A stretch of 64,000 nucleotides of DNA from Escherichia coli (GTDB taxonomy: Bacteria > Pseudomonadota > Gammaproteobacteria > Enterobacterales > Enterobacteriaceae), in NCBI RefSeq assembly GCF_044324785.1, contig NZ_CP172127.1; one strand, 5' to 3'. Both the position numbers and the translations under genes were made by a program. Under the pieces are notes generated by a model. The model was not told the DNA's origin. It was given only the letters and a program-made list of their open reading frames with translations, and searched no databases. Below are positions 50,121-60,078 of this stretch, piece by piece; position 1 is the stretch's first letter, and each line of letters starts with the position of its first letter.

Positions 50121-51788
50121 GTGGCTCAATTCGTTTATACCATGCATCGTGTCGGCAAAGTTGTTCCGCCGAAACGTCATATTTTGAAAAACATCTCTCT
50201 GAGTTTCTTCCCTGGGGCAAAAATTGGTGTCCTGGGTCTGAACGGCGCGGGTAAGTCCACCCTGCTGCGCATTATGGCGGGCATTGATAAAGACATCGAA
50301 GGCGAAGCGCGTCCGCAACCGGATATCAAGATTGGTTATCTGCCGCAGGAACCGCAGCTGAACCCGGAACACACCGTGCGTGAGTCCATTGAAGAAGCGG
50401 TTTCTGAAGTGGTTAACGCCCTGAAACGCCTGGATGAAGTGTATGCGCTGTACGCCGATCCGGATGCCGATTTTGACAAGCTGGCCGCTGAACAAGGCCG
50501 TCTGGAAGAGATCATTCAGGCTCACGACGGTCACAACCTGAACGTTCAGCTGGAGCGTGCGGCGGATGCGCTGCGTCTGCCGGACTGGGACGCGAAAATC
50601 GCTAACCTCTCCGGTGGTGAGCGTCGTCGCGTGGCGTTGTGCCGCCTGCTGCTGGAAAAACCAGACATGCTGCTGCTCGACGAACCGACCAACCACCTGG
50701 ATGCCGAATCCGTGGCCTGGTTGGAACGCTTCCTGCACGACTTCGAAGGCACCGTGGTGGCGATTACCCACGACCGTTACTTCCTTGATAACGTTGCAGG
50801 CTGGATCCTCGAACTGGACCGCGGTGAAGGTATTCCGTGGGAAGGCAACTACTCCTCCTGGCTGGAGCAGAAAGATCAACGTCTGGCGCAGGAAGCTTCA
50901 CAAGAAGCTGCGCGTCGTAAGTCGATTGAGAAAGAGCTGGAGTGGGTACGTCAGGGAACTAAAGGCCGTCAGTCGAAAGGTAAAGCACGTCTGGCGCGTT
51001 TTGAAGAGCTGAACAGCACCGAATATCAGAAACGTAACGAAACCAACGAACTGTTTATTCCACCAGGACCGCGTCTTGGCGATAAAGTGCTGGAAGTCAA
51101 CAACCTGCGTAAATCCTATGGCGATCGTCTGCTGATTGATGACCTGAGCTTCTCGATCCCGAAAGGAGCGATCGTCGGGATCATCGGTCCGAACGGTGCG
51201 GGTAAATCGACCCTGTTCCGTATGATCTCTGGTCAGGAACAGCCGGACAGCGGCACCATCACTTTGGGTGAAACGGTGAAACTGGCATCGGTTGATCAGT
51301 TCCGTGACTCAATGGATAACAGCAAAACCGTTTGGGAAGAAGTTTCCGGCGGGCTGGATATCATGAAGATCGGCAACACCGAGATGCCAAGCCGTGCCTA
51401 CGTTGGCCGCTTTAACTTTAAAGGGGTTGATCAGGGTAAACGCGTTGGCGAACTCTCCGGCGGTGAGCGCGGTCGTCTGCATCTGGCGAAGCTGCTGCAG
51501 GTTGGCGGCAACATGCTGCTGCTCGACGAACCAACCAACGACCTGGATATCGAAACCCTGCGCGCGCTGGAAAACGCCCTGCTGGAGTTCCCGGGCTGCG
51601 CGATGGTTATCTCGCACGACCGTTGGTTCCTCGACCGTATCGCCACGCACATTCTGGATTACCAGGATGAAGGTAAAGTTGAGTTCTTCGAAGGTAACTT
51701 TACCGAGTACGAAGAGTACAAGAAACGCACGCTGGGCGCAGACGCGCTGGAGCCGAAGCGTATCAAGTACAAGCGTATTGCGAAGTAA
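50121..51788 (+). CDS. ettA: Energy-dependent translational throttle protein EttA (ABC-F ATPase)
   Basis: 555-aa ORF MAQFVYTMHRVGKVVPPKRHILKNISLSFFPGAKIGVLGLNGAGKSTLLRIMAGIDKD; two ABC domains; intact. Confidence 0.97.
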   Translation: MAQFVYTMHRVGKVVPPKRHILKNISLSFFPGAKIGVLGLNGAGKSTLLRIMAGIDKDIEGEARPQPDIKIGYLPQEPQLNPEHTVRESIEEAVSEVVNALKRLDEVYALYADPDADFDKLAAEQGRLEEIIQAHDGHNLNVQLERAADALRLPDWDAKIANLSGGERRRVALCRLLLEKPDMLLLDEPTNHLDAESVAWLERFLHDFEGTVVAITHDRYFLDNVAGWILELDRGEGIPWEGNYSSWLEQKDQRLAQEASQEAARRKSIEKELEWVRQGTKGRQSKGKARLARFEELNSTEYQKRNETNELFIPPGPRLGDKVLEVNNLRKSYGDRLLIDDLSFSIPKGAIVGIIGPNGAGKSTLFRMISGQEQPDSGTITLGETVKLASVDQFRDSMDNSKTVWEEVSGGLDIMKIGNTEMPSRAYVGRFNFKGVDQGKRVGELSGGERGRLHLAKLLQVGGNMLLLDEPTNDLDIETLRALENALLEFPGCAMVISHDRWFLDRIATHILDYQDEGKVEFFEGNFTEYEEYKKRTLGADALEPKRIKYKRIAK

Positions 51789-51876
51789 TGCGTAAAATGC
51801 CGGATGCGGCGCGCCAGCATCGCATCCGGTATTAGTTAAATGATTAGTCCCCGGAAAAAGGCAGAATTTTCTTTAA
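51015..51876. repeat. Direct repeat copy A (ettA 3' end + REP + antitoxin-gene 3' remnant)
   Basis: About 860 bp that recur, with scattered substitutions and one 13-bp indel, at 55917..56776. Confidence 0.8.
51798..51830. repeat. REP element downstream of ettA
   Basis: GCCGGATGCGGCGCGCCAGCATCGCATCCGG palindrome; duplicated at about 56683..56715. Confidence 0.5.
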
Positions 51877-51943
51877 GCGTATTAGCTCAGATGCGGACTG
51901 ACACCTCAAATCAAGCGGGAACTCATGGTTCCCGCTTAACGTT

Positions 51944-52831
51944 TTATTCACCGCGCAGGATCTGGCGGAAATGGGAAACCAGCGGACGTTGGTTGGCTTT
52001 ATGCCAGGCTGCCCATAATTGCGTTGAATAATTCATCCACGGCAATTCACGTAATACCACCCCTTCCGGCGCATTATGACGCAGACTATGTTGAATTAAG
52101 GCCAGACCTAATCCCGCAGCGACCAGACCTAATGCCGTGAGGGGTTCACCCGCTTCCAGGCGAATATCAGGATTAAACCCGGCGTTAACACAGGCGGCGA
52201 CAAAATGATCGCGAGAATGCGCATCGTCGTTATGAATCACCGCAATCCACTGCTCATCGCCAAGTTGTGACGCGACAAGGTTTTCCTCCTGCGCCAGAGG
52301 ATGATTTTGCGGTAAGGCCAACAACATTCGATCATCCAGAACCTGAATATATTCCAGATCCTGCTCGCTGTCGGCGGGCGGCGTATCGACCAGAGAAAAA
52401 TCGAGACTGCGCTGGCGCAGGCCTTCAATCTGGGTAGCCGGTGGTTGGCTGTAAAGTGCGATATGCACATTCGGACGCGATACACGTAACGTACGTAGCG
52501 CCGTAGAAAGCACACCGGAATGCATGGCGTTTTCGATATAGCCAATACACAAGCCACCATCTTCCCCCCGTCCCAGGCGTTTGCCTAACGACTCCAGGCG
52601 GTTGGCGTGTGTCAGCAACGAACGTGTTTCGGCAAGGAATGTCTGTCCATCAGCGGTCAGGCGAATGCGCTGCTGATTACGCTCAAACAGCGTCAGCCCC
52701 AGCCGTTCTTCCAGTTGTGCAATCTGGCGGCTCAGCGGTGATTGCGAGATATGTAATCGCTCGGCTGCGCGTCCCACGTGCTCTTCTTCTGCGACCACCA
52801 CGAAGTACTTCAGTTGGCGTAAATCAATCAT
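51944..52831 (-). CDS. LysR-family transcriptional regulator
   Basis: ORF 51944..52924; canonical LysR N-terminus from internal Met MIDLRQLKYFVVVAEEEHVGRAAERLHISQSPLSRQIAQLEERLG (295 aa); divergent from the adjacent oxidoreductase genes. Confidence 0.85.
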   Translation of the reverse strand: MIDLRQLKYFVVVAEEEHVGRAAERLHISQSPLSRQIAQLEERLGLTLFERNQQRIRLTADGQTFLAETRSLLTHANRLESLGKRLGRGEDGGLCIGYIENAMHSGVLSTALRTLRVSRPNVHIALYSQPPATQIEGLRQRSLDFSLVDTPPADSEQDLEYIQVLDDRMLLALPQNHPLAQEENLVASQLGDEQWIAVIHNDDAHSRDHFVAACVNAGFNPDIRLEAGEPLTALGLVAAGLGLALIQHSLRHNAPEGVVLRELPWMNYSTQLWAAWHKANQRPLVSHFRQILRGE

Positions 52832-52896
52832 GTTAGACCTCAAAGGACTTAAGTCAGACGAATTATGTCCTATCAAGTCACAACCTCGCAAGGTAT

Positions 52897-52912
52897 TGTG
52901 ATCCACGTCACA
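52897..52912. promoter_or_regulatory. Perfect TGTGA-N6-TCACA palindrome in the LysR/AKR divergent promoter region
   Basis: TGTGATCCACGTCACA in the 133-bp intergenic region; fits the CRP half-site consensus and also a T-N11-A LysR-type box. Confidence 0.3.
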
Positions 52913-52964
52913 GGGCGATAGCAAAAAAACGCCCTAACCCAAACCGAATAATTGAGGACATCTT

Positions 52965-53975
52965 ATGAGCATCAAAAATTTACTTCCCGGCAAAATTGGC
53001 TTAGGTGGCGCACCACTCGGCAACATGTTCCGTGCCATTCCGGAAGACGAGGCCCACGCCACCGTGAGCGAAGCCTGGAACCTGGGCGTGCGTTACTTTG
53101 ATACCGCGCCGCTGTACGGCTCTGGCCTTTCTGAAATCCGCATGGGTGAAGCGCTGTCTCAGTATCCACGCGATGAATACGTTCTGAGCAGCAAAGTCGG
53201 TCGCATCATGCTGGACGAAATGGAAGATCCGGCAAAACGTGATTTCGGTGAAAAAGGTGGCCTGTTCGAACACGGCCTGAAAAACAAAATTCTGAATGAC
53301 TACTCTGCTGACGCCACGCTGCGCTCGATTGAAGACAGCCTGAAACGCCTGAAAACAGACCGTCTGGATATTGTCTGGATCCATGACCCGGCGCAGGACT
53401 TCTACGGTGACAGCTGGCTGGAACAGTTCAACATTGCCCGTACCGGTGCGTTTCGTGCGCTGACGCGTTTGCGTGACGAAGGTGTGATTAAAGCCTGGGG
53501 ACTGGGTGTGAATCGCGTCGAACCTTGCGAACTGACGCTGGCGCTGGACGAACCGAAGCCGGATGCGTTCCTGCTGGCGGGGCGTTATTCCCTGCTGGAT
53601 CACGAACGTGCGCTGCAACGCCTGATGCCAGAAGCACTGGAACAGAACGTGGATATTGTTGTGGGCGGTCCGTACAGCTCTGGCGTACTGGCAGGCGGCG
53701 AGCACTTTGAATATCAGAAAGCTTCTGCGGCCATCCAGCAGAAAGTGGCGCAAATTAACACCATTGCCACACGTTTCAATGTGAACGTTAAAGCAGCTGC
53801 GCTGCAGTTCGCACTGGCAAACCCGGCCGTTGCGGCGGTTATTCCTGGCTCCAGCCGTCCTGGCCGTATGGCAGAAGATCTGGCTGCACTGAATGCGCCT
53901 GTTCCGGCTGAATTCTGGGCAGAAATGCGCCGTCAAAATCTGGTTGCGGAAAACGCTCCGCTGCCGACCCGTTAA
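52965..53975 (+). CDS. Aldo/keto reductase family oxidoreductase
   Basis: 336 aa, MSIKNLLPGKIGLGGAPLGNMF...YFDTAPLYGSG; AKR fold motifs. Confidence 0.85.
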   Translation: MSIKNLLPGKIGLGGAPLGNMFRAIPEDEAHATVSEAWNLGVRYFDTAPLYGSGLSEIRMGEALSQYPRDEYVLSSKVGRIMLDEMEDPAKRDFGEKGGLFEHGLKNKILNDYSADATLRSIEDSLKRLKTDRLDIVWIHDPAQDFYGDSWLEQFNIARTGAFRALTRLRDEGVIKAWGLGVNRVEPCELTLALDEPKPDAFLLAGRYSLLDHERALQRLMPEALEQNVDIVVGGPYSSGVLAGGEHFEYQKASAAIQQKVAQINTIATRFNVNVKAAALQFALANPAVAAVIPGSSRPGRMAEDLAALNAPVPAEFWAEMRRQNLVAENAPLPTR

Positions 53976-53994
53976 TCAACCTGGTGAGAAAACG

Positions 53995-54792
53995 ATGAAA
54001 CTGGATCTGACAGGTAAAGTCGCGGTAGTCAGCGGCTCAACCTCCGGCATTGGGCAGGGTATCGCCGCCGGACTGGCAAAAGCAGGCGCAACGGTGGTTG
54101 TCGTCGGCCGTAAACAGCGCGGCGTTGATGACGCCATGGCTGCGATTGCGGCACAAACTCCCACGGCGTCACTGCGTGGCGTGGTGGCCGACCTCAGCAC
54201 CGAAGACGGCGTGGCTGCGCTGATCGCTGCAGTCCCAACGGCTGATGTGCTGGTCAATAATCTGGGCATTTTTAACGATAAAGATTTCTTTAGCGTTCCG
54301 GATGATGAGTGGATGCACTTCTATAACGTCAACGTCCTCTCCGGCGTTCGTCTGGCGCGTCACTATGCGCCAGGCATGACGGAACAGGGCTGGGGGCGGA
54401 TTATCTTTGTCTCGTCCGAATCCGGCGTGGCAATCCCTGGCGACATGATCAACTACGGCGTCACCAAAGCCGCGAATCTGGCGGTTTCTCATGGTCTGGC
54501 GAAACGACTGGCGGGGACCGGTGTGACCGTCAACGCCATTCTGCCAGGGCCAACCTTTACCGATGGCCTGAAAGAGATGCTGGCGGATGCCGCTGCACAA
54601 TCGGGACGCAGTGCGCGTGAACAGGCCGATGAGTTTGTTAAAACCTCGCGTCCGAGCTCCATCATCCAGCGTGCGGCGGATGTGGAAGAAGTGGCGAATC
54701 TGGCGGTTTATCTCGCGTCACCGCTTTCCTCGGCAACCACAGGGGCAGCCCTGCGCGTCGATGGTGGCGTCGTCGACACCCTGACTATGTAA
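53995..54792 (+). CDS. Short-chain dehydrogenase/reductase (SDR)
   Basis: ORF 53893..54792; start MKLDLTGKVAVVSGSTSGIGQGIA (TGxxxGxG Rossmann motif) preceded by GGTGAG; 265 aa. Confidence 0.85.
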   Translation: MKLDLTGKVAVVSGSTSGIGQGIAAGLAKAGATVVVVGRKQRGVDDAMAAIAAQTPTASLRGVVADLSTEDGVAALIAAVPTADVLVNNLGIFNDKDFFSVPDDEWMHFYNVNVLSGVRLARHYAPGMTEQGWGRIIFVSSESGVAIPGDMINYGVTKAANLAVSHGLAKRLAGTGVTVNAILPGPTFTDGLKEMLADAAAQSGRSAREQADEFVKTSRPSSIIQRAADVEEVANLAVYLASPLSSATTGAALRVDGGVVDTLTM

Positions 54793-54817
54793 CCCTATAA
54801 ATTAAGAGAAAATTATC

Positions 54818-55234
54818 ATGGCTAAAACAACTGTATCGATCGAAATTCCGGCTTCTGCCGACGCCGTATGGCAATTGATGGGCGGCTTTGATGCGCTGCC
54901 AGACTGGCTGCCGTTCATCCCGAAAAGCGTGGTGACAGAAGGCGGTCGCGTTCGTTCGCTGACAACCTCTGACGGCGGCACTGTGGTTGAACGTCTGGAA
55001 GCGTTTGATAACCGTCAACGCAGTTATACCTATTCCATTATTCAAGCACCGTTCCCAGTGGTGGATTACCTCTCCACCATTACCGTTCATGAAACCGCCG
55101 ACAGCCAGGTTTCCCGTGTGGAATGGTTCGGTGAATTCACCCCGGTGAATGTGACGAACGAAGAGGCCGAAGCGCTGTTTACCGGCATCTATCGGGATGG
55201 TCTCAAGGCGCTGAAGGACAACTTTGTTGCCTGA
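54818..55234 (+). CDS. SRPBCC-superfamily (polyketide cyclase / Bet v1-like) protein
   Basis: 138 aa; family assignment from overall sequence character, moderate certainty. Confidence 0.6.
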   Translation: MAKTTVSIEIPASADAVWQLMGGFDALPDWLPFIPKSVVTEGGRVRSLTTSDGGTVVERLEAFDNRQRSYTYSIIQAPFPVVDYLSTITVHETADSQVSRVEWFGEFTPVNVTNEEAEALFTGIYRDGLKALKDNFVA

Positions 55235-55391
55235 TGCAATCGACAGGCGTCGGAACGTCCGGCGTCTGATTATTAACAAAAGCAGAATAGTCTATTGTCA
55301 TTTGTATCATTTATGTTATCAGGCAGCAGGCGTATTCTCTTCCCATCGCGTTAATAAACGCCAAACAATTAAGACACTCTGGAATATAAAC

Positions 55392-55604
55392 ATGAAAACG
55401 ATCATCGCAATTTTTACGGCTTCTCTTTTCTCTGTCGCGGCGTTTAACGCATCGGCGCAAAGCGTGACAGCAACCGGTACAACACTGGATTCTGCGGAAG
55501 CAGTTATTGCGCAGAAAGCGAAAGAGATGAACGCCTCTGAATACAAAATCACCAGCGCTCGCATGGGCAATACCGTCACCATGAGTGCCGAACTGTACAA
55601 ATAA
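55392..55604 (+). CDS. DUF1471 (YdgH/BhsA/McbA-like) small secreted stress protein
   Basis: 70-aa frame MKTIIAIFTASLFSVAAFNASAQSV...ASEYKITSARMGNTVTMSAELYK; signal peptide and family-typical C-terminus. Confidence 0.7.
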   Translation: MKTIIAIFTASLFSVAAFNASAQSVTATGTTLDSAEAVIAQKAKEMNASEYKITSARMGNTVTMSAELYK

Positions 55605-55628
55605 CCGCGCAAGGGACCCATTACGTAA

Positions 55629-55838
55629 TTTGCTAAATATGCGCTGAATGCGTTGCCATTAAAAAACCGTATTGTAATGCCACCGATGACACGTTCCCGT
55701 GCGGGTGACGTTGCGACTGACATGATGGCGGACTATTACGCGCAGCGCGCTAGTGCAGGACTTATCATCAGCGAAGGTACGCAAATCAGCAGAAGCGCTG
55801 CGCATAATTTTCCACGGCCCGCTGATTTACTCCGGTAA
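55629..55838 (+). pseudogene. Remnant of an Old-Yellow-Enzyme (NemA-like) NADH:flavin oxidoreductase gene
   Basis: Frame encodes PLKNRIVMPPMTRSR...MMADYYAQRASAGLIISEGTQIS, resembling an OYE N-terminus, then loses similarity and stops; no in-frame ATG. Confidence 0.55.
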
Positions 55839-55916
55839 ATAGACCAAAGCGCGCGCAGAAGCGGACTGTCAGATTTGATTGCATTCTGGCTACGCAACTG
55901 GTCGGTTGGAGTATGA

Positions 55917-56677
55917 AGCACCGAATATCAGAAACGTAACGAAACCAACGAACTGTTTATTCCACCTGGACCGTGTCTGGGCGACAAAGTGCTGGAAGTC
56001 AGCAACCTGCGTAAATCCTATGGCGATCGTCTGCTGATTGACTCCCTGAGCTTCTCGATCCCGAAAGGAGCGATCGTCGGGATCATCGGTCCGAACGGTA
56101 CGGGCAAATCGACGTTGTTCCGTATGATCTCTGGTCAGGAACAGCCGGACAGCGGCACCATCACTCTGGGTGAAACGGTGAAACTGGCATCGGTTGATCA
56201 GTTCCGTGACTCAATGGATAACCGCAAAGCCGTTTGGGAAGAAGTTTCCGGCGGGCTGGATATCATGAAGATCGGCAACACCGAGATGCCAAGCCGCGCC
56301 TACGTTGGCCGCTTTAACTTTAAGGTAAACGCGTTGGTGAACTTTCCGGTGGTGAGCGCGGTCGTCTGCATCTGGCGAAGCTGCTGCAGGTTGGCGGCAA
56401 CATGCTGCTGCTCGACGAACCAACTAACGACCTGAATATCGAAACCCTGCGCGCGCTGGAAAACGCCCTACTGGAGTTCCCGGGCTGTGCGATGGTTATC
56501 TCGCACGACCGTTGGTTCCTCGACCGTATCGCCACGCACATCCTGGACTACCAGGATGAAGGTAAAGTTGAGTTCTTCGAAGGTAACTTTACCGAGTACG
56601 AAGAGTACAAAAAACGCACGCTGGGCGCAGACGCGCTGGAGCCGAAGCGTATCAAGTACAAGCGTATTGCGAAGTAA
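55917..56677 (+). pseudogene. Truncated, frameshifted second copy of the ettA 3' half
   Basis: Matches ettA from about 51015 onward with scattered substitutions and a 13-bp deletion near 56320 that breaks the frame; no 5' half. Confidence 0.85.
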
Positions 56678-56776
56678 TGCGTAAAATGCCGGGTGCGGCG
56701 CGCCAGCATCGCATCCGGTATTAGTTAAATGATTAATGGGAGGCAAGTTCCCGGAAAAAGGCAGGATTTTCTTTAA
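55917..56776. repeat. Direct repeat copy B (ettA' + REP + 3' end of intact antitoxin gene)
   Basis: Counterpart of 51015..51876. Confidence 0.8.
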
Positions 56777-57017
56777 TTGTGGCAAGTACTTTTGCAGCCA
56801 ATCCCGTAGGATTTCTTCGCTTCGATTCCCAGCTTTTAATGGTATCCACACTGGTTCCCAGAGCTTTTGCCATCTCACTTTGAGAAACGTTGAGTTGCTC
56901 ACGAATAGCTTTAACATCCGCAATTTCGTAGCGGGTCACCCGTGCAGGTTCTTTTAAACCTTGTTTAATCTCGACAGCCTCTTCCAGAGAGGTTTTCAAC
57001 TCATCAAAAAAACTCAT
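56733..57017 (-). CDS. HTH (XRE-like) antitoxin of a type II toxin-antitoxin pair
   Basis: 94 aa; C-terminal helix-turn-helix (LNVSQSEMAKALGTSVDTIKSWE); start 1 bp after the toxin stop. Confidence 0.7.
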   Translation of the reverse strand: MSFFDELKTSLEEAVEIKQGLKEPARVTRYEIADVKAIREQLNVSQSEMAKALGTSVDTIKSWESKRRNPTGLAAKVLATIKENPAFFRELASH

Positions 57018-57018
57018 T

Positions 57019-57351
57019 TTATACCTCGCCTTTGAGCAGTTTCGTCAACTTCTTTAGTTGAGCTTTTTCCGTATCTGTCAGACTATCTTTGGCATTTTTC
57101 GGATAGGCCATAATCAAATAAATAATCTCTTCCGTCGCCAGAAAGTAAATTATTCTGACACTGCCACTTTTTCCCTGTGAACCCGCAGCCATTCGGACTT
57201 TACGCAATCCACCAGTCTGCTGAATGAGATCACCTTTATCGGGAGTTCCGATGAGTTCTTTTTGTAATTCCTTTAATTCATCATCGGTTGCAATCTGCTT
57301 GATCTGACGCGTAAACATTGGCGTCTCTATAAATATTATCGCCTTGCCCAT
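57019..57351 (-). CDS. RelE/ParE-superfamily (HigB-like) toxin, putative
   Basis: ORF 57019..57429; likely start MGKAIIFIETPMF preceded by GGGAGG (about 110 aa); toxin-first gene order. Confidence 0.6.
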   Translation of the reverse strand: MGKAIIFIETPMFTRQIKQIATDDELKELQKELIGTPDKGDLIQQTGGLRKVRMAAGSQGKSGSVRIIYFLATEEIIYLIMAYPKNAKDSLTDTEKAQLKKLTKLLKGEV

Positions 57352-57366
57352 CCCCCCTCCCTGGCA

Positions 57367-57399
57367 GGTACATTGTACACCGAAATGGAGTACTAAGTA
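57367..57399. promoter_or_regulatory. Paired GTAC-containing palindromes upstream of the toxin gene (candidate operator)
   Basis: GTACATTGTAC and GTACTAAGTAC about 20 bp apart, 16-48 bp upstream of the proposed toxin start. Confidence 0.3.
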
Positions 57400-57442
57400 C
57401 ACTTTTGAATTAGTAATCCCACTCAACATCTTATAAAGATGA

Positions 57443-58675
57443 TTATCCCTGCTCCCCCATCATCTCCCGCACCAGCTCCACACAGCGCAGGAAACGGCTG
57501 TCGTAATCGTCCTCTTCAACCCGCACAAATTCGATATTGTTCTCTTCCAGCATCTCTACCAGCAAGTTCTGGAACTCTTTGCGATCCACCGAACTACCGA
57601 GGCTGCGTAAACCATCCGCCACCCACGGGGTGTTGTTCTCCAGCAAGATAACCAGATCAAAACGGTATTCATCGATCAGCGCCTGCACGAACGGATGCTC
57701 CCGCCCTTCGTACTTTTTGCAGAACGCCTGGGTAGTGACAAAATCAGTGTCGATAAACGCCACTTTATTGGCATATTTCACTGCAAAATCAATGTATTGA
57801 GCGTGTCCCAGCGCGATTTTATCGTAGTCGGAATACTGCAATGCGATCTCATCACCGCCAAGGTGTGAAAAGACATAATCGCGACCATATTCCCATGCAC
57901 TGGTAGTGTTGAAGATATTAGCAAGTTTGTTTACCAGGGTGGATTTACCGCTCGACTCGCCGCCAAGGATCGCCACGGTACGCACAAAGAACGGCTTCAC
58001 TTCGGTGGGAATATATTCCCAGTAGCGGAACGGGTTTTCGCGGATCTGCGCACCGCTGATACTCATAAAGGTACGCTTCGGATCGACCAGCACCGTCTCG
58101 ATCCCCAGATGTTCCATATACTGTGGCGCATCGGCTTCTTCCGAGGTGTAGATCAGGTCCGGCTGGATCCCCTTTTCAGCCATAAACTTTTTGATGCCGT
58201 TGCTCCACACATCCCAGCCGTGCGGATATGGCTCCATGCCCTCTTCGTTGAAAGCATGAATACGGATATTTTTCTGATATTTAAAGGTTTGCAATAACCA
58301 GCGCAGACGATCCGGCACGGTGGGCTGCTGCGACATGGCGCTGTCTTCAAACAACGCGCGGTCGCGGGTATCGTCAAAACCCATAATGATATGCAGCTCG
58401 TCAACCTGGCTACAGGCGCGCTGGATAAGGTAGATATGTCCGGTATGTAGCGGGTAGAACTTACCGAATACGACACCAATGGTTTTCTTCTGTCGGGGAA
58501 ATTCAAGCCCCAAAAAACGGTGCAACGCCTCCAGTTTTTGCGCGCTGGGGCTTTTAATTTTGGCATTCAGTAACTGGCTTAAATACCCTTTGGTCATACC
58601 GCTGGCATCAGCTACCTGCTGTAGCGTGCAGCCCTGTTGCTTGATGGCAGTTTTCAGGTAATCAAATGACGACAT
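57443..58675 (-). CDS. nadR: Trifunctional NAD biosynthesis/regulator protein NadR
   Basis: ORF 57443..58696; NadR from MSSFDYLKTAIKQQGCTLQQVADASGMTKGYLSQLL (410 aa). Confidence 0.95.
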   Translation of the reverse strand: MSSFDYLKTAIKQQGCTLQQVADASGMTKGYLSQLLNAKIKSPSAQKLEALHRFLGLEFPRQKKTIGVVFGKFYPLHTGHIYLIQRACSQVDELHIIMGFDDTRDRALFEDSAMSQQPTVPDRLRWLLQTFKYQKNIRIHAFNEEGMEPYPHGWDVWSNGIKKFMAEKGIQPDLIYTSEEADAPQYMEHLGIETVLVDPKRTFMSISGAQIRENPFRYWEYIPTEVKPFFVRTVAILGGESSGKSTLVNKLANIFNTTSAWEYGRDYVFSHLGGDEIALQYSDYDKIALGHAQYIDFAVKYANKVAFIDTDFVTTQAFCKKYEGREHPFVQALIDEYRFDLVILLENNTPWVADGLRSLGSSVDRKEFQNLLVEMLEENNIEFVRVEEDDYDSRFLRCVELVREMMGEQG

Positions 58676-58695
58676 ATCTCCCTCCGTATCTCTCA

Positions 58696-60078
58696 TTATA
58701 AGTCGTCGAACACGCTAAGCGCGTCGGAGAGTTTTTTAACGCCAAAAATCTGCATCCCTTCCGGCGCTTTTTTCGGCACGTTAGCCGCCGGAACAATCGC
58801 CCGGCGAAAACCGTGTTTCGCCGCTTCAGAGATTCGTTCCTGACCGCTGGGCACCGGGCGGATCTCCCCTGCCAGCCCGACTTCACCAAACACCACCAGA
58901 TCCTGTGGCAGCGGTCTGTCGCGCAGGCTGGAAACCATCGCCAGCAGTAACGCTAAGTCGGCGCTGGTTTCGGTTACCTTCACGCCGCCGACCACGTTCA
59001 CAAACACATCCTGATCGGCCATTTGCAGACCACCGTGACGGTGCAAGACAGCCAGCAGGATTGCCAGACGGTTTTGTTCCAGCCCCACTGCCACGCGGCG
59101 CGGATTCGCCATCATCGAGTGATCGACCAGCGCCTGAATCTCCACCAGCAACGGACGCGTTCCTTCCCACACCACCATCACTGAGCTACCGGAGGTCACT
59201 TCATCACCGCGGCTTAAAAAGATGGCGGAAGGGTTGCTGACTTCACGCAGCCCCTGTTCGGTCATCGCGAAGACGCCCAGCTCATTCACCGCGCCGAAGC
59301 GGTTTTTATGGCTGCGTAAGGTGCGAAAACGGGAGTCGGCATCGCCATCCAGAAGCACCGAACAGTCAATACAGTGTTCCAGCACTTTAGGGCCAGCCAG
59401 CGAACCATCTTTGGTTACGTGCCCAACCATGACAATCGCCACGCCGCGCGTTTTGGCGAAGCGCGTCAGATAAGCCGCCGTTTCACGCACCTGCGCCACG
59501 CTGCCAGGCGATGATTGTACATCCGCCATATGCATCACCTGAATGGAGTCAATTACCATCAGCTTCGGTTGCTCTTCTTCGGCAATCAGGCAGATTTGCT
59601 CGATGCTGGTTTCCGACAACATATTGAGATTGTCAGTCGGCAGGCCAAGGCGATGAGCGCGCATTGCCACCTGTTGCAGCGACTCTTCGCCGGTGACATA
59701 CAGCGTTTTCATCTGCTGCGCCAGTTTGCACAGCGTTTGCAGCAACAGCGTGGATTTCCCCGCACCTGGGTTACCGCCAATCAGAATGGCGCTTCCCGGC
59801 ACCACCCCGCCGCCTAATACGCGGTCGAACTCTTTAAATCCGGTGGAAAAACGCGGCAGCTCTTCAAGGCTGATGTCGGAAAGTTTCTGGACTTTTGCCA
59901 CCCCGGCGCTACCGGCATAGCCACTGAGACGCTCGTTACGCGCCACCGTTGGTGACGCGGCAAGACGCACCTCGGTGATGGTGTTCCAGGCATGACAGGC
60001 ACTGCACTGTCCCTGCCAGCGCGGATAATCGGCCCCGCATTCATTACAAACAAAGGCGCGTTTTGGAGCTTTTGCCAC
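58696..60078 (-). CDS. radA: DNA repair protein RadA (Sms)
   Basis: ORF 58696..60126; probable GTG start giving (M)AKAPKRAFVCNECGADYPRWQGQCSAC; Walker A GNPGAGKST. Confidence 0.95.
   Translation of the reverse strand: MAKAPKRAFVCNECGADYPRWQGQCSACHAWNTITEVRLAASPTVARNERLSGYAGSAGVAKVQKLSDISLEELPRFSTGFKEFDRVLGGGVVPGSAILIGGNPGAGKSTLLLQTLCKLAQQMKTLYVTGEESLQQVAMRAHRLGLPTDNLNMLSETSIEQICLIAEEEQPKLMVIDSIQVMHMADVQSSPGSVAQVRETAAYLTRFAKTRGVAIVMVGHVTKDGSLAGPKVLEHCIDCSVLLDGDADSRFRTLRSHKNRFGAVNELGVFAMTEQGLREVSNPSAIFLSRGDEVTSGSSVMVVWEGTRPLLVEIQALVDHSMMANPRRVAVGLEQNRLAILLAVLHRHGGLQMADQDVFVNVVGGVKVTETSADLALLLAMVSSLRDRPLPQDLVVFGEVGLAGEIRPVPSGQERISEAAKHGFRRAIVPAANVPKKAPEGMQIFGVKKLSDALSVFDDL

What the first reader, a model, noticed from the sequence alone, without database searches (positions are those of the whole stretch)
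55917..56677. Diverged, frameshifted ettA' fragment retained beside an intact ettA
The second copy of the ettA 3' half has no 5' half, carries a 13-bp deletion (near 56320, inside the second ABC domain) and several substitutions, including non-synonymous ones (for example DDLSF to DSLSF, GAGKST to GTGKST). It looks like the displaced allele of a recombination event; it preserves a record of a second ettA lineage and is a potential substrate for further recombination.
Basis: seen in the sequence. Interest (0 to 1): 0.4.

Follow-up and report, generated by a model that had tools for sequence, protein, structure and literature searches.

The report
Dead ettA remnant beside island
The second ettA copy is real but is a dead, decaying gene remnant: the right-hand copy of an ~860-bp repeat bracketing a 4-kb acquired oxidoreductase island, which is an ordinary recombination scar in a rare arrangement.

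Summary
Window 55917..56677 repeats the 3' 774 nt of ettA (50121..51788), with a 13-bp deletion at 56323|56324, 27 substitutions and an in-frame TGA directly upstream. RefSeq annotates the same coordinates as a frameshifted, N-terminally truncated ABC pseudogene in the one other genome that carries it.

The repeat is longer than reported. It spans 51015..51876 and 55917..56776 and includes the ettA terminator and 44 bp of the nadS 3' end. It brackets a 4,040-bp island encoding LysR, an aldo/keto reductase, an SDR, an SRPBCC protein, a DUF1471 protein and a decayed OYE remnant.

About 479 of 5,426 complete E. coli genomes carry the island without ettA'. Only one, strain 06-00048, has the island|ettA' junction. 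It gave 0 hits in metagenome contigs.

The locus reads as the left part of the common island haplotype joined to mid-ettA of a CFT073-like ettA-nadS-relE haplotype. The joint lies exactly at the island's right end, with 2 bp (AG) shared.

Fragment-lineage substitutions are 8 non-synonymous to 8 synonymous, against 3:31 among intact alleles (p = 0.002). That indicates neutral decay.

DDLSF>DSLSF is an ordinary allelic polymorphism, not decay. The order of events is unresolved. Interest is low.

The parts
50121..51788 (+). Intact ettA (555 aa)
   Evidence: ORF. NCBIfam NF008775 scores 1016.5 bits against a cut-off of 599. PGAP annotation of the collinear loci agrees.
51015..51876 (+). Repeat copy B: ettA nt 895-1668, the terminator hairpin, and a decayed 44-bp remnant of the nadS 3' end
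   Evidence: blastn 51015-51876 against 55917-56776, the repeat finder D1/D2 and sequence. This copy has an 11-bp deletion relative to copy B' in the nadS remnant.
51877..55916 (.). 4,040-bp island: LysR (51944..52831, -), aldo/keto reductase (52965..53975, +), SDR (53995..54792, +), SRPBCC (54818..55234, +), DUF1471/YdgH-BhsA-like (55392..55604, +), OYE remnant
   Evidence: Pfam hits and PGAP annotation. The island is absent from K-12, O157, CFT073 and THO-003. A homologous cluster sits at another locus in strain E69, E. whittamii, Trabulsiella and Yokenella.
55653..55916 (+). Decayed Old-Yellow-Enzyme (NADH:flavin oxidoreductase) remnant: the N-terminal ~46 codons, a 686-bp internal deletion at 55790|55791, then a scrambled tail from about 55865
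   Evidence: Pfam PF00724. Alignment to the intact 365-aa gene in L007/L008.
55914..55918 (+). Island|ettA' junction: an in-frame TGA (55914-16) followed by AG shared with both possible partners. The same island end is joined to nadS in the common island type.
   Evidence: Sequences...GGAGTATGA|AG|CACCG here, against ...GGAGTATGA|AG|TTGCTC in L002. All 11 metagenome hits have the latter form.
55917..56677 (+). ettA' pseudogene (codons 299-555 of ettA) with a 13-bp deletion at 56323|56324
   Evidence: PGAP pseudogene at the same coordinates in L001. The two residual ORFs (55989..56435 and 56402..56677) score 185 and 161 bits against the 599 cut-off.
55917..56776 (+). Repeat copy B' (ettA', terminator hairpin, and the first 44 bp of the intact nadS 3' end)
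56733..57017 (-). nadS (HigA/MqsA-like antitoxin-type HTH protein), intact, CFT073-like allele
   Evidence: NCBIfam NF041265 scores 182.6 bits against a cut-off of 60. 0-1 differences from the b-type strains.
57019..57351 (-). RelE/ParE-family toxin gene, intact. It is deleted in the K-12 type and in the common island type.
   Evidence: PGAP annotation of L001/L003 and alignment. No NCBIfam hit at 1e-5.
57443..58675 (-). nadR, the right-hand core flank
   Evidence: PGAP annotation. One mismatch to strain N3 over 57443-59000.

Best explanation
ettA' is a non-functional relic. It is the right-hand copy of an ~860-bp direct repeat (mid-ettA to 44 bp inside nadS) that brackets a 4.0-kb horizontally acquired oxidoreductase island.

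The most likely history has three steps:
1. The island, whose homologues sit at a different locus in a cryptic Escherichia lineage, E. whittamii, Trabulsiella and Yokenella, inserted once into nadS downstream of ettA and replaced 117 bp. The background carried the K-12-like nadS allele. This gave the common 'island, no ettA'' type.
2. Later, a single illegitimate joint connected the right end of that island to the middle of ettA of a CFT073-like chromosome (ettA-nadS-relE-nadR). The island end is the point where homology between the two haplotypes stops. The other side of the exchange was ordinary homologous recombination. The joint could have formed by one-ended homologous recombination plus end joining, or by single crossover of a circularised fragment. 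The product carries a complete ettA, the island, and a leftover 3' part of the other ettA allele that has no start codon and no promoter.
3. The leftover then decayed neutrally: a 13-bp frameshift, A360T in Walker A, D476N in the D-loop, R318C and S401R.

Shown here: the anatomy, the junction sequences, the haplotype affinities, the rarity, and the relaxed selection. Inferred: the order of events and the molecular route of the joint.
For: Anatomy and pseudogene state:
- There is an in-frame TGA upstream and no promoter-like site.
- The residual ORFs fall below the EttA cut-off.
- PGAP calls the same feature a pseudogene in 06-00048.

Evidence for neutral decay:
- Fragment-lineage substitutions are N:S 8:8, against 3:31 among eight intact alleles (Fisher p = 0.002). 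This is compatible with the neutral expectation for transitions.
- The 13-bp deletion and 9 substitutions are shared by both carrier strains. 2 and 5 further substitutions are private to each, and all are transitions.
- The two carriers differ at 9/761 sites in ettA' but at 0/674 in the adjacent intergenic region plus nadS-relE (p = 0.004).

Island origin:
- The island is 97.8% identical to a cluster next to yhiN in strain E69, which has an intact OYE gene. The E69 flanks are only 94% identical to E. coli.

Evidence for the order of events:
- The island-only type is common (about 479 of 5,426 genomes; 11 of 11 metagenome hits). The ettA'-bearing junction is in 1 of 5,426 genomes and 0 metagenome contigs.
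- Both types use the identical island end.
- The nadS remnant of the island-only type carries K-12-like allele states starting 17 bp from the junction, and it has the same relE deletion as K-12. nadS-relE beside ettA' is the CFT073-like allele, with 1-3 differences per gene.

Precedent:
- In E. coli, single crossover of circles carrying truncated homology yields 109-950-bp partial duplications and was more frequent than classical homology-facilitated illegitimate recombination (HFIR) (PMC3240628).
Against: - The order of events is not proven. Either order needs one illegitimate event that lands exactly on the island's right end, and only 2 bp (AG) of clean microhomology is visible.
- ettA' is old. 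It has 9 shared and 2-5 private substitutions, and the two carrier strains differ by 1.6% over 11 kb. Rarity today therefore does not prove that the arrangement is derived.
- Homologous recombination has shuffled the locus. The window is 99.4% identical to the island-only strain N3 but 98.4% identical to the other ettA' carrier. Haplotype affinities could therefore have been rewritten after the event.
- Only eight intact alleles were compared and no outgroup was used. Some 'fragment-specific' synonymous changes may be unsampled polymorphisms.
Confidence: 0.6

Rival explanations
1. The ettA'-bearing arrangement is the primary insertion product. The island entered a chromosome either with an ~860-bp target duplication or by Campbell-type single crossover of a circle carrying the island plus a truncated ettA-nadS segment. 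The common island-only type arose later by a 975-bp deletion (55917..56891, give or take the shared AG) and then spread.
For: - A direct repeat of a truncated homologous segment flanking foreign DNA is the signature of single-crossover integration. It was the predominant outcome in E. coli experiments.
- ettA' is old: 9 shared substitutions plus an indel precede the split of the two carriers.
- The two carriers are less alike (98.4%) than the window and the island-only strain N3 (99.4%), so the rare type is not a recent clone.
Against: - It needs a deletion whose left end falls exactly on the island|ettA' joint.
- The nadS remnant next to the island in the island-only type carries the K-12-like allele from 17 bp after the junction, and the K-12 relE deletion. 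nadS beside ettA' is CFT073-like. So an additional allelic replacement is required.
- Deleting the antitoxin's 3' part while relE is intact may be counter-selected (inference).
- It needs three events against two.
Confidence: 0.27
2. The fragment is a functional truncated ABC-F gene, or encodes small proteins (a 148-aa Walker-A half or a 91-aa C-terminal piece) with a regulatory or dominant-negative role.
For: - Two ORFs remain open and keep strong similarity to EttA.
- The fragment lies in the same orientation as the upstream island genes, so read-through transcription is conceivable.
Against: - There is an in-frame TGA directly upstream, no 5' half, and no promoter-like site.
- The frameshift removes the LSGGE signature region (profile positions 437-465 are not covered).
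- Substitutions hit Walker A and the D-loop.
- N:S is 8:8 and differs from intact alleles.
- PGAP calls it a pseudogene.
- It is absent from about 479 of about 480 island carriers.
Confidence: 0.02
3. The duplicate is an assembly artefact, such as a collapsed or mis-joined repeat.
For: Repeats of ~860 bp can be mis-assembled from short reads.
Against: - An independent complete genome (06-00048, NZ_CP015229.1) has the same junction, the same 13-bp deletion and 9 shared substitutions, and differs at 181 sites over 11 kb.
- The two copies differ at 27 sites, so they would not collapse.
Confidence: 0.01

Closest known systems
Partial-gene direct repeats left by single-crossover (Campbell-type) integration or homology-facilitated illegitimate recombination in E. 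coli (PMC3240628)
   Same: A truncated copy of a chromosomal gene flanks inserted foreign DNA as a direct repeat. The repeat size (862 bp) falls within the reported 109-950 bp range. One side of the event is homologous and the other is an illegitimate joint.
   Different: This is a natural, ancient event with no plasmid backbone. The joint coincides with a pre-existing island boundary. Only 2 bp of microhomology is visible, against the 3-10 bp typical of HFIR. The route was not observed, only inferred.
Displaced 3' gene ends at the borders of integrative genomic islands (for example tRNA or tmRNA attachment sites)
   Same: An intact gene lies at one border and a partial 3' copy at the other, as direct repeats that can mediate island loss.
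   Different: No integrase or recombinase gene lies in or beside the island. The repeat is ~860 bp of protein-coding DNA at 96% identity, not a short exact att core. About 479 of about 480 island carriers have no repeat at all.
EttA / ABC-F translation factors (E. coli EttA, NCBIfam NF008775)
   Same: The fragment is homologous to residues 299-555 of EttA, which cover the end of the interdomain linker and ABC domain 2.
   Different: It lacks ABC1, the arm and most of the linker. It is frameshifted before the signature motif and has no start codon. It is not a member as a gene product.

Membership tests
EttA (ABC-F, NCBIfam NF008775 equivalog) | Full-length match above the curated cut-off (599 bits) | tested here: not met
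   The fragment ORFs score 185.2 and 161.3 bits and cover profile positions 325-436 and 466-555. The intact gene scores 1016.5.
EttA (ABC-F, NCBIfam NF008775 equivalog) | Two tandem ABC domains joined by a linker, in one reading frame with a start codon | tested here: not met
   Homology starts at codon 299. A TGA lies directly upstream. A 13-bp deletion shifts the frame at 56323|56324.
EttA (ABC-F, NCBIfam NF008775 equivalog) | Intact ATPase motifs of ABC2 (Walker A, signature LSGGE, Walker B E470, D-loop) | tested here: not met
   A360T lies in GPNGAGKST. The signature region is out of frame. D476N lies in NDLD. Motif assignment rests on general ABC knowledge and on E470 being the known catalytic Glu.
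Pseudogene (decaying gene remnant) | Relaxed selection relative to functional alleles | tested here: met
   N:S is 8:8 on the fragment lineage against 3:31 among eight intact alleles, Fisher p = 0.002. It is compatible with neutrality for transitions, p = 0.29.
Pseudogene (decaying gene remnant) | Disabling lesion shared by descent in independent genomes | tested here: met
   The same truncation point and 13-bp deletion occur in the window and in 06-00048. PGAP flags the feature as frameshifted and incomplete.
Integrase-type integrative island with att repeats | A tyrosine or serine recombinase gene within or next to the island | tested here: not met
   The ORFs of 51877..55916 are LysR, AKR, SDR, SRPBCC, DUF1471 and an OYE remnant. 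PGAP annotation lists no integrase.
Integrase-type integrative island with att repeats | The same flanking repeats in all carriers | tested here: not met
   About 479 island carriers lack the ettA' repeat. Only 1 of 5,426 genomes has it.
Campbell-type or HFIR recombination product | One homologous flank plus one illegitimate joint, giving a truncated direct repeat of the homologous segment | tested here: met
   The structure is A-B-island-B'-C with joint GGAGTATGA|AG|CACCG.
Campbell-type or HFIR recombination product | Direct observation of the intermediate (a circle or a linear donor) and of the host functions it depends on | not testable with these tools
   This needs experiments.

The most novel reading that the evidence does not exclude
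The identical island end (…GGAGTATGA+AG) is joined to two unrelated targets: mid-ettA here and mid-nadS in about 479 genomes. This could mean the 4-kb oxidoreductase segment has, or once had, a defined, reusable end. Examples would be a cleavage or recombination hotspot, or an unrecognised one-ended mobilisation mechanism. On that reading the two junctions are independent insertions rather than one derived from the other.
Probability: 0.05. Interest if true: 0.5.

Novelty: new member of a known kind. Interest (0 to 1): 0.15.

Why it matters
The practical value is for annotation and comparative genomics.
- The feature should be labelled an ettA pseudogene, not a generic ABC protein.
- The ~860-bp repeats predict RecA-dependent loss of the island.
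- Most such crossovers would leave a damaged ettA. Crossovers left of 56324 inherit the frameshift, and those left of 56435 inherit D476N. This may help stabilise the island in this rare haplotype (inference).
- The locus is a clean natural example of a chimeric junction between two circulating haplotypes (island type and toxin-antitoxin type) at the ettA-nadR hotspot.
- It gives a small neutral 'clock' segment of 761 bp, with 9 shared and 2-5 private substitutions.

It does not bear on EttA function or on any open question.

Tried and rejected
- **Gene conversion between the two copies.** At sites where the window's ettA differs from that of its close relative N3, the window state is the common one and N3 is the odd one. 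27 differences persist between the copies. I found no signal.
- **A divergent or exotic ettA lineage.** After removing the 11 lineage-specific changes, the allele is 11-21 differences from sampled alleles, within the normal range.
- **Deletion between short repeats converting one junction type into the other.** CACCGAATA/CACGAATA and GTTGGAG/GTTGAG similarities exist near the joints. The products they predict do not match the observed sequences (by eye).
- **More carriers in metagenomes.** The junction 24-mer gave 0 hits. The shared island-end 19-mer gave 11 hits, all of the island-only type, and no third junction type.
- **Literature.** I found no paper on an ettA/yjjK-nadR island or an ettA pseudogene.
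- **Origin of the 36 bp at the island's left edge (51877-51912) and of the scrambled 52-bp tail (55865-55916).** There was no convincing match in any fetched locus.

Full report
**1. Observation**

The window carries an intact ettA at 50121..51788. It encodes 555 aa and matches the NCBIfam EttA equivalog NF008775 at 1016.5 bits against a cut-off of 599. A second copy of its 3' part begins at A55917, which is ettA nt 895 (codon 299), and runs to the same stop codon at 56677.

The second copy differs from the window's own gene in two ways. It has a 13-bp deletion (AGGGGTTGATCAG missing between 56323 and 56324) and 27 substitutions. Directly upstream, in the ettA frame, is a TGA (55914-55916). 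No sigma-70-like promoter is predicted on the + strand upstream of the fragment.

Two ORFs remain, 55989..56435 and 56402..56677. They match EttA profile positions 325-436 and 466-555 at 185 and 161 bits, far below the cut-off. The signature-motif region between them is out of frame.

I make three corrections:
- The duplicated segment does not stop at the ettA stop codon. It spans 51015..51876 and 55917..56776 and includes the ettA terminator hairpin and 44 bp of the 3' end of nadS.
- DDLSF>DSLSF is an ordinary allelic polymorphism. Ser is found in the intact ettA of CFT073, 06-00048 and THO-003.
- GAGKST>GTGKST (A360T) is specific to the fragment.

**2. What lies around it**

The two repeat copies bracket 4,040 bp (51877..55916) that K-12, O157:H7, CFT073 and THO-003 lack. 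This island encodes:
- a LysR regulator (minus strand);
- an aldo/keto reductase;
- an SDR oxidoreductase;
- an SRPBCC protein;
- a DUF1471/YdgH-BhsA-like protein;
- the remnant of an Old-Yellow-Enzyme gene.

To the right of ettA' lie an intact nadS (NF041265, 182.6 bits), a RelE/ParE toxin gene and nadR.

A closely related cluster occurs at other chromosomal sites. It is 97.8% identical and has an intact 365-aa OYE gene.
- It sits next to yhiN in strain E69. The E69 flanks are only about 94% identical to E. coli, so that strain is a cryptic-clade Escherichia.
- It also occurs in E. whittamii.
- With falling identity it occurs in Trabulsiella, Yokenella, Yersinia, Raoultella and others.

The window copy of the OYE gene has a 686-bp internal deletion and a scrambled tail from about 55865. 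The island is therefore horizontally acquired DNA, cut off inside the OYE gene.

**3. Population picture**

The ettA-nadR interval in 5,426 complete E. coli genomes comes in at least five forms:
- (a) K-12/O157 type: ettA, REP elements, truncated nadS, nadR.
- (b) CFT073 type: ettA, nadS, relE, nadR.
- (c) The window's type: ettA, island, ettA', nadS, relE, nadR.
- (d) ettA, island, nadS 5' remnant, nadR, with no ettA' and no relE.
- (e) ettA, REP, nadR.

About 479 genomes carry the island. Only one of them, strain 06-00048, has the island|ettA' junction. In that genome PGAP already annotates the same coordinates as 'ATP-binding cassette domain-containing protein; frameshifted; incomplete; missing N-terminus'.

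The junction 24-mer has no hit in the metagenome contig collection. All 11 metagenome contigs containing the island-end 19-mer are type (d). The window's own genome is not in the complete-genome set. Its closest relative there, strain N3, is type (d). N3 is:
- 99.2% identical to the window over 24 kb of neighbouring sequence;
- 99.4% identical from slt (47840) to the island's right end;
- different at only one site in the first 1.5 kb of nadR.

**4. Junctions**

Types (c) and (d) share the left junction (nadS 3' remnant|island) and use exactly the same island right end. Type (c) reads ...GGAGTATGA|AG|CACCGAAT (ettA). Type (d) reads ...GGAGTATGA|AG|TTGCTCACG (nadS). The AG could come from either side.

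Type (d) is thus a simple insertion that replaced 117 bp of nadS. Type (c) equals the left part of (d) up to the island end, followed by a type (b) chromosome from mid-ettA onward.

Haplotype affinities agree with this reading:
- The nadS remnant of type (d) carries K-12-like allele states from 17 bp after the joint, and it has the identical relE deletion seen in K-12.
- nadS and relE next to ettA' are the CFT073-like allele, with 1/285 and 2-3/334 differences.

**5. Is ettA' decaying or constrained?**

I compared both carrier fragments with eight intact alleles. The fragment lineage has 16 substitutions seen in no intact allele:
- 9 are shared by both carriers: R318C, A360T, S401R, D476N and five synonymous changes.
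- 2 are private to the window: T403A and one synonymous change.
- 5 are private to 06-00048: R506H, I511V, D541N and two synonymous changes.

That is 8 non-synonymous to 8 synonymous, against 3:31 for polymorphisms among intact alleles (Fisher p = 0.002). It is compatible with the neutral expectation for transitions, which is 65% non-synonymous (p = 0.29).

Between the two carriers, ettA' differs at 9 of 761 sites. The adjacent 674 bp (intergenic region, nadS, relE) differ at none (p = 0.004).

A360T lies in Walker A. D476N changes the D-loop aspartate six residues after the catalytic E470. The motif assignments come from general knowledge of ABC ATPases and the published EttA E470Q mutant.

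The fragment is therefore a genuine pseudogene, and not a young one. The frameshift and nine substitutions predate the split of the two carriers, which differ by 1.6% over 11 kb. Without its lineage-specific changes the allele is 11-21 differences from the sampled intact alleles. Those alleles differ from each other by 0-30, most pairs 11-30, so the fragment records an ordinary second E. coli allele, not an exotic lineage. I found no sign of gene conversion between the two copies.

**6. Mechanism**

The structure is A-B-island-B'-C, with B' truncated at its 5' end and one illegitimate joint. This is the known signature of two processes: single-crossover integration of a circle carrying a truncated homologous segment, and one-ended homologous recombination plus an illegitimate joint (HFIR). 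In E. coli conjugation experiments, single-crossover events were the predominant outcome and produced partial duplications of 109-950 bp (PMC3240628).

I favour the order 'island-only type first, ettA' type second' at about 0.6, for four reasons:
- Type (d) is a simple one-step insertion.
- Its nadS remnant has a different allele from the nadS beside ettA', from 17 bp after the joint. That is too close to have been introduced later by homologous exchange.
- In a (d) x (b) encounter, the island end is exactly where homology between the two molecules stops. That gives a reason for a break or joint at that spot.
- This order needs two events rather than three.

The rival order is that the ettA'-bearing form is the primary Campbell-type or duplicative insertion and the island-only form arose by a junction-precise 975-bp deletion. 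It remains possible at about 0.27. ettA' is old, and recombination has visibly shuffled haplotypes at this locus. For example, there are clusters of mismatches between the window and N3 at 50500-51722 and 53813-55060 in an otherwise near-identical background. A functional truncated gene and an assembly artefact are both very unlikely.

**7. Consequences (inference)**

The ~860-bp, 96-97% identical direct repeats are a substrate for RecA-dependent deletion of the island. Crossovers left of 56324 would give ettA the frameshift. Crossovers between 56324 and 56435 would give it D476N. Only those in the last ~340 bp of the repeat (of which ~240 bp lie within ettA) would restore a wild-type-like gene.

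**8. Novelty and score**

The feature is real, but it is an ordinary by-product of recombination at an island border. It is already flagged as a pseudogene in RefSeq for the one other carrier. What is new is modest:
- the full extent of the repeat;
- the island's origin at another locus;
- the rarity of the arrangement (1 of 5,426 genomes);
- its chimeric (d)+(b) haplotype;
- the reuse of one island end in two junctions.

Interest is 0.15.

Noticed in passing
window 51877..55916; L007 8949..13756; L008: The 4-kb LysR/AKR/SDR/SRPBCC/DUF1471/OYE cluster sits between ettA and nadR in about 9% of complete E. coli genomes. It also occurs, 97.8% identical and with an intact OYE gene, next to yhiN in 'E. 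coli' strain E69, whose flanks are only ~94% identical to E. coli. That suggests E69 is a mislabelled cryptic-clade Escherichia and that the cluster was transferred between lineages.
   Followed up: partly
window 55653..55916: The OYE-family remnant has a 686-bp internal deletion at 55790|55791. Identity to the intact gene drops abruptly from ~93-98% to barely alignable after ~55865. The origin of this 52-bp tail, and of the 36 bp at the island's left edge (51877..51912), is unexplained.
   Followed up: partly
window 56733..57351; L004 3381..3548; L002 7402..7545: The nadS-relE/parE toxin-antitoxin pair is intact here and in CFT073-type strains. K-12/O157-type and island-only strains share an identical relE deletion (57048..57442 equivalent) and a distinct nadS allele, so two old haplotypes circulate at this spot.
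   Followed up: partly
window 50500..51722 and 53813..55060 vs L087 (strain N3): Against the otherwise near-identical strain N3 (0-1 mismatches per 1.5-2 kb), mismatches cluster in the 3' two-thirds of ettA (26) and in the SDR/SRPBCC part of the island (16). These look like short homologous-recombination imports.
   Followed up: partly
window 50665..50788 vs 51511..51634 (and 56400..56523): A 124-nt internal repeat at 70-73% identity is the ancient ABC1/ABC2 paralogy within ettA (Walker B region). It is not a recent repeat.
   Followed up: no
L009 (JAIJJM010000794.1, 'Collinsella sp.' MAG, 1,397 bp): A contig binned as Collinsella encodes an aldo/keto reductase identical to the E. coli one over the 332 residues the contig covers. 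This is most likely a mis-binned E. coli contig.
   Followed up: no
L094 positions 1..31: A metagenome contig starts with GTCGGCAGCGTCAGATGTGTATAAGAGACAG, the Nextera transposase adapter (recalled from memory), fused directly to island sequence. This is untrimmed adapter in a public assembly.
   Followed up: no
one search hits H2 (E2386) and H4 (E28): Some island-carrying genomes have IS1 or IS1397 insertions within the ettA-nadR interval, so the locus is a recurrent target for rearrangement.
   Followed up: no
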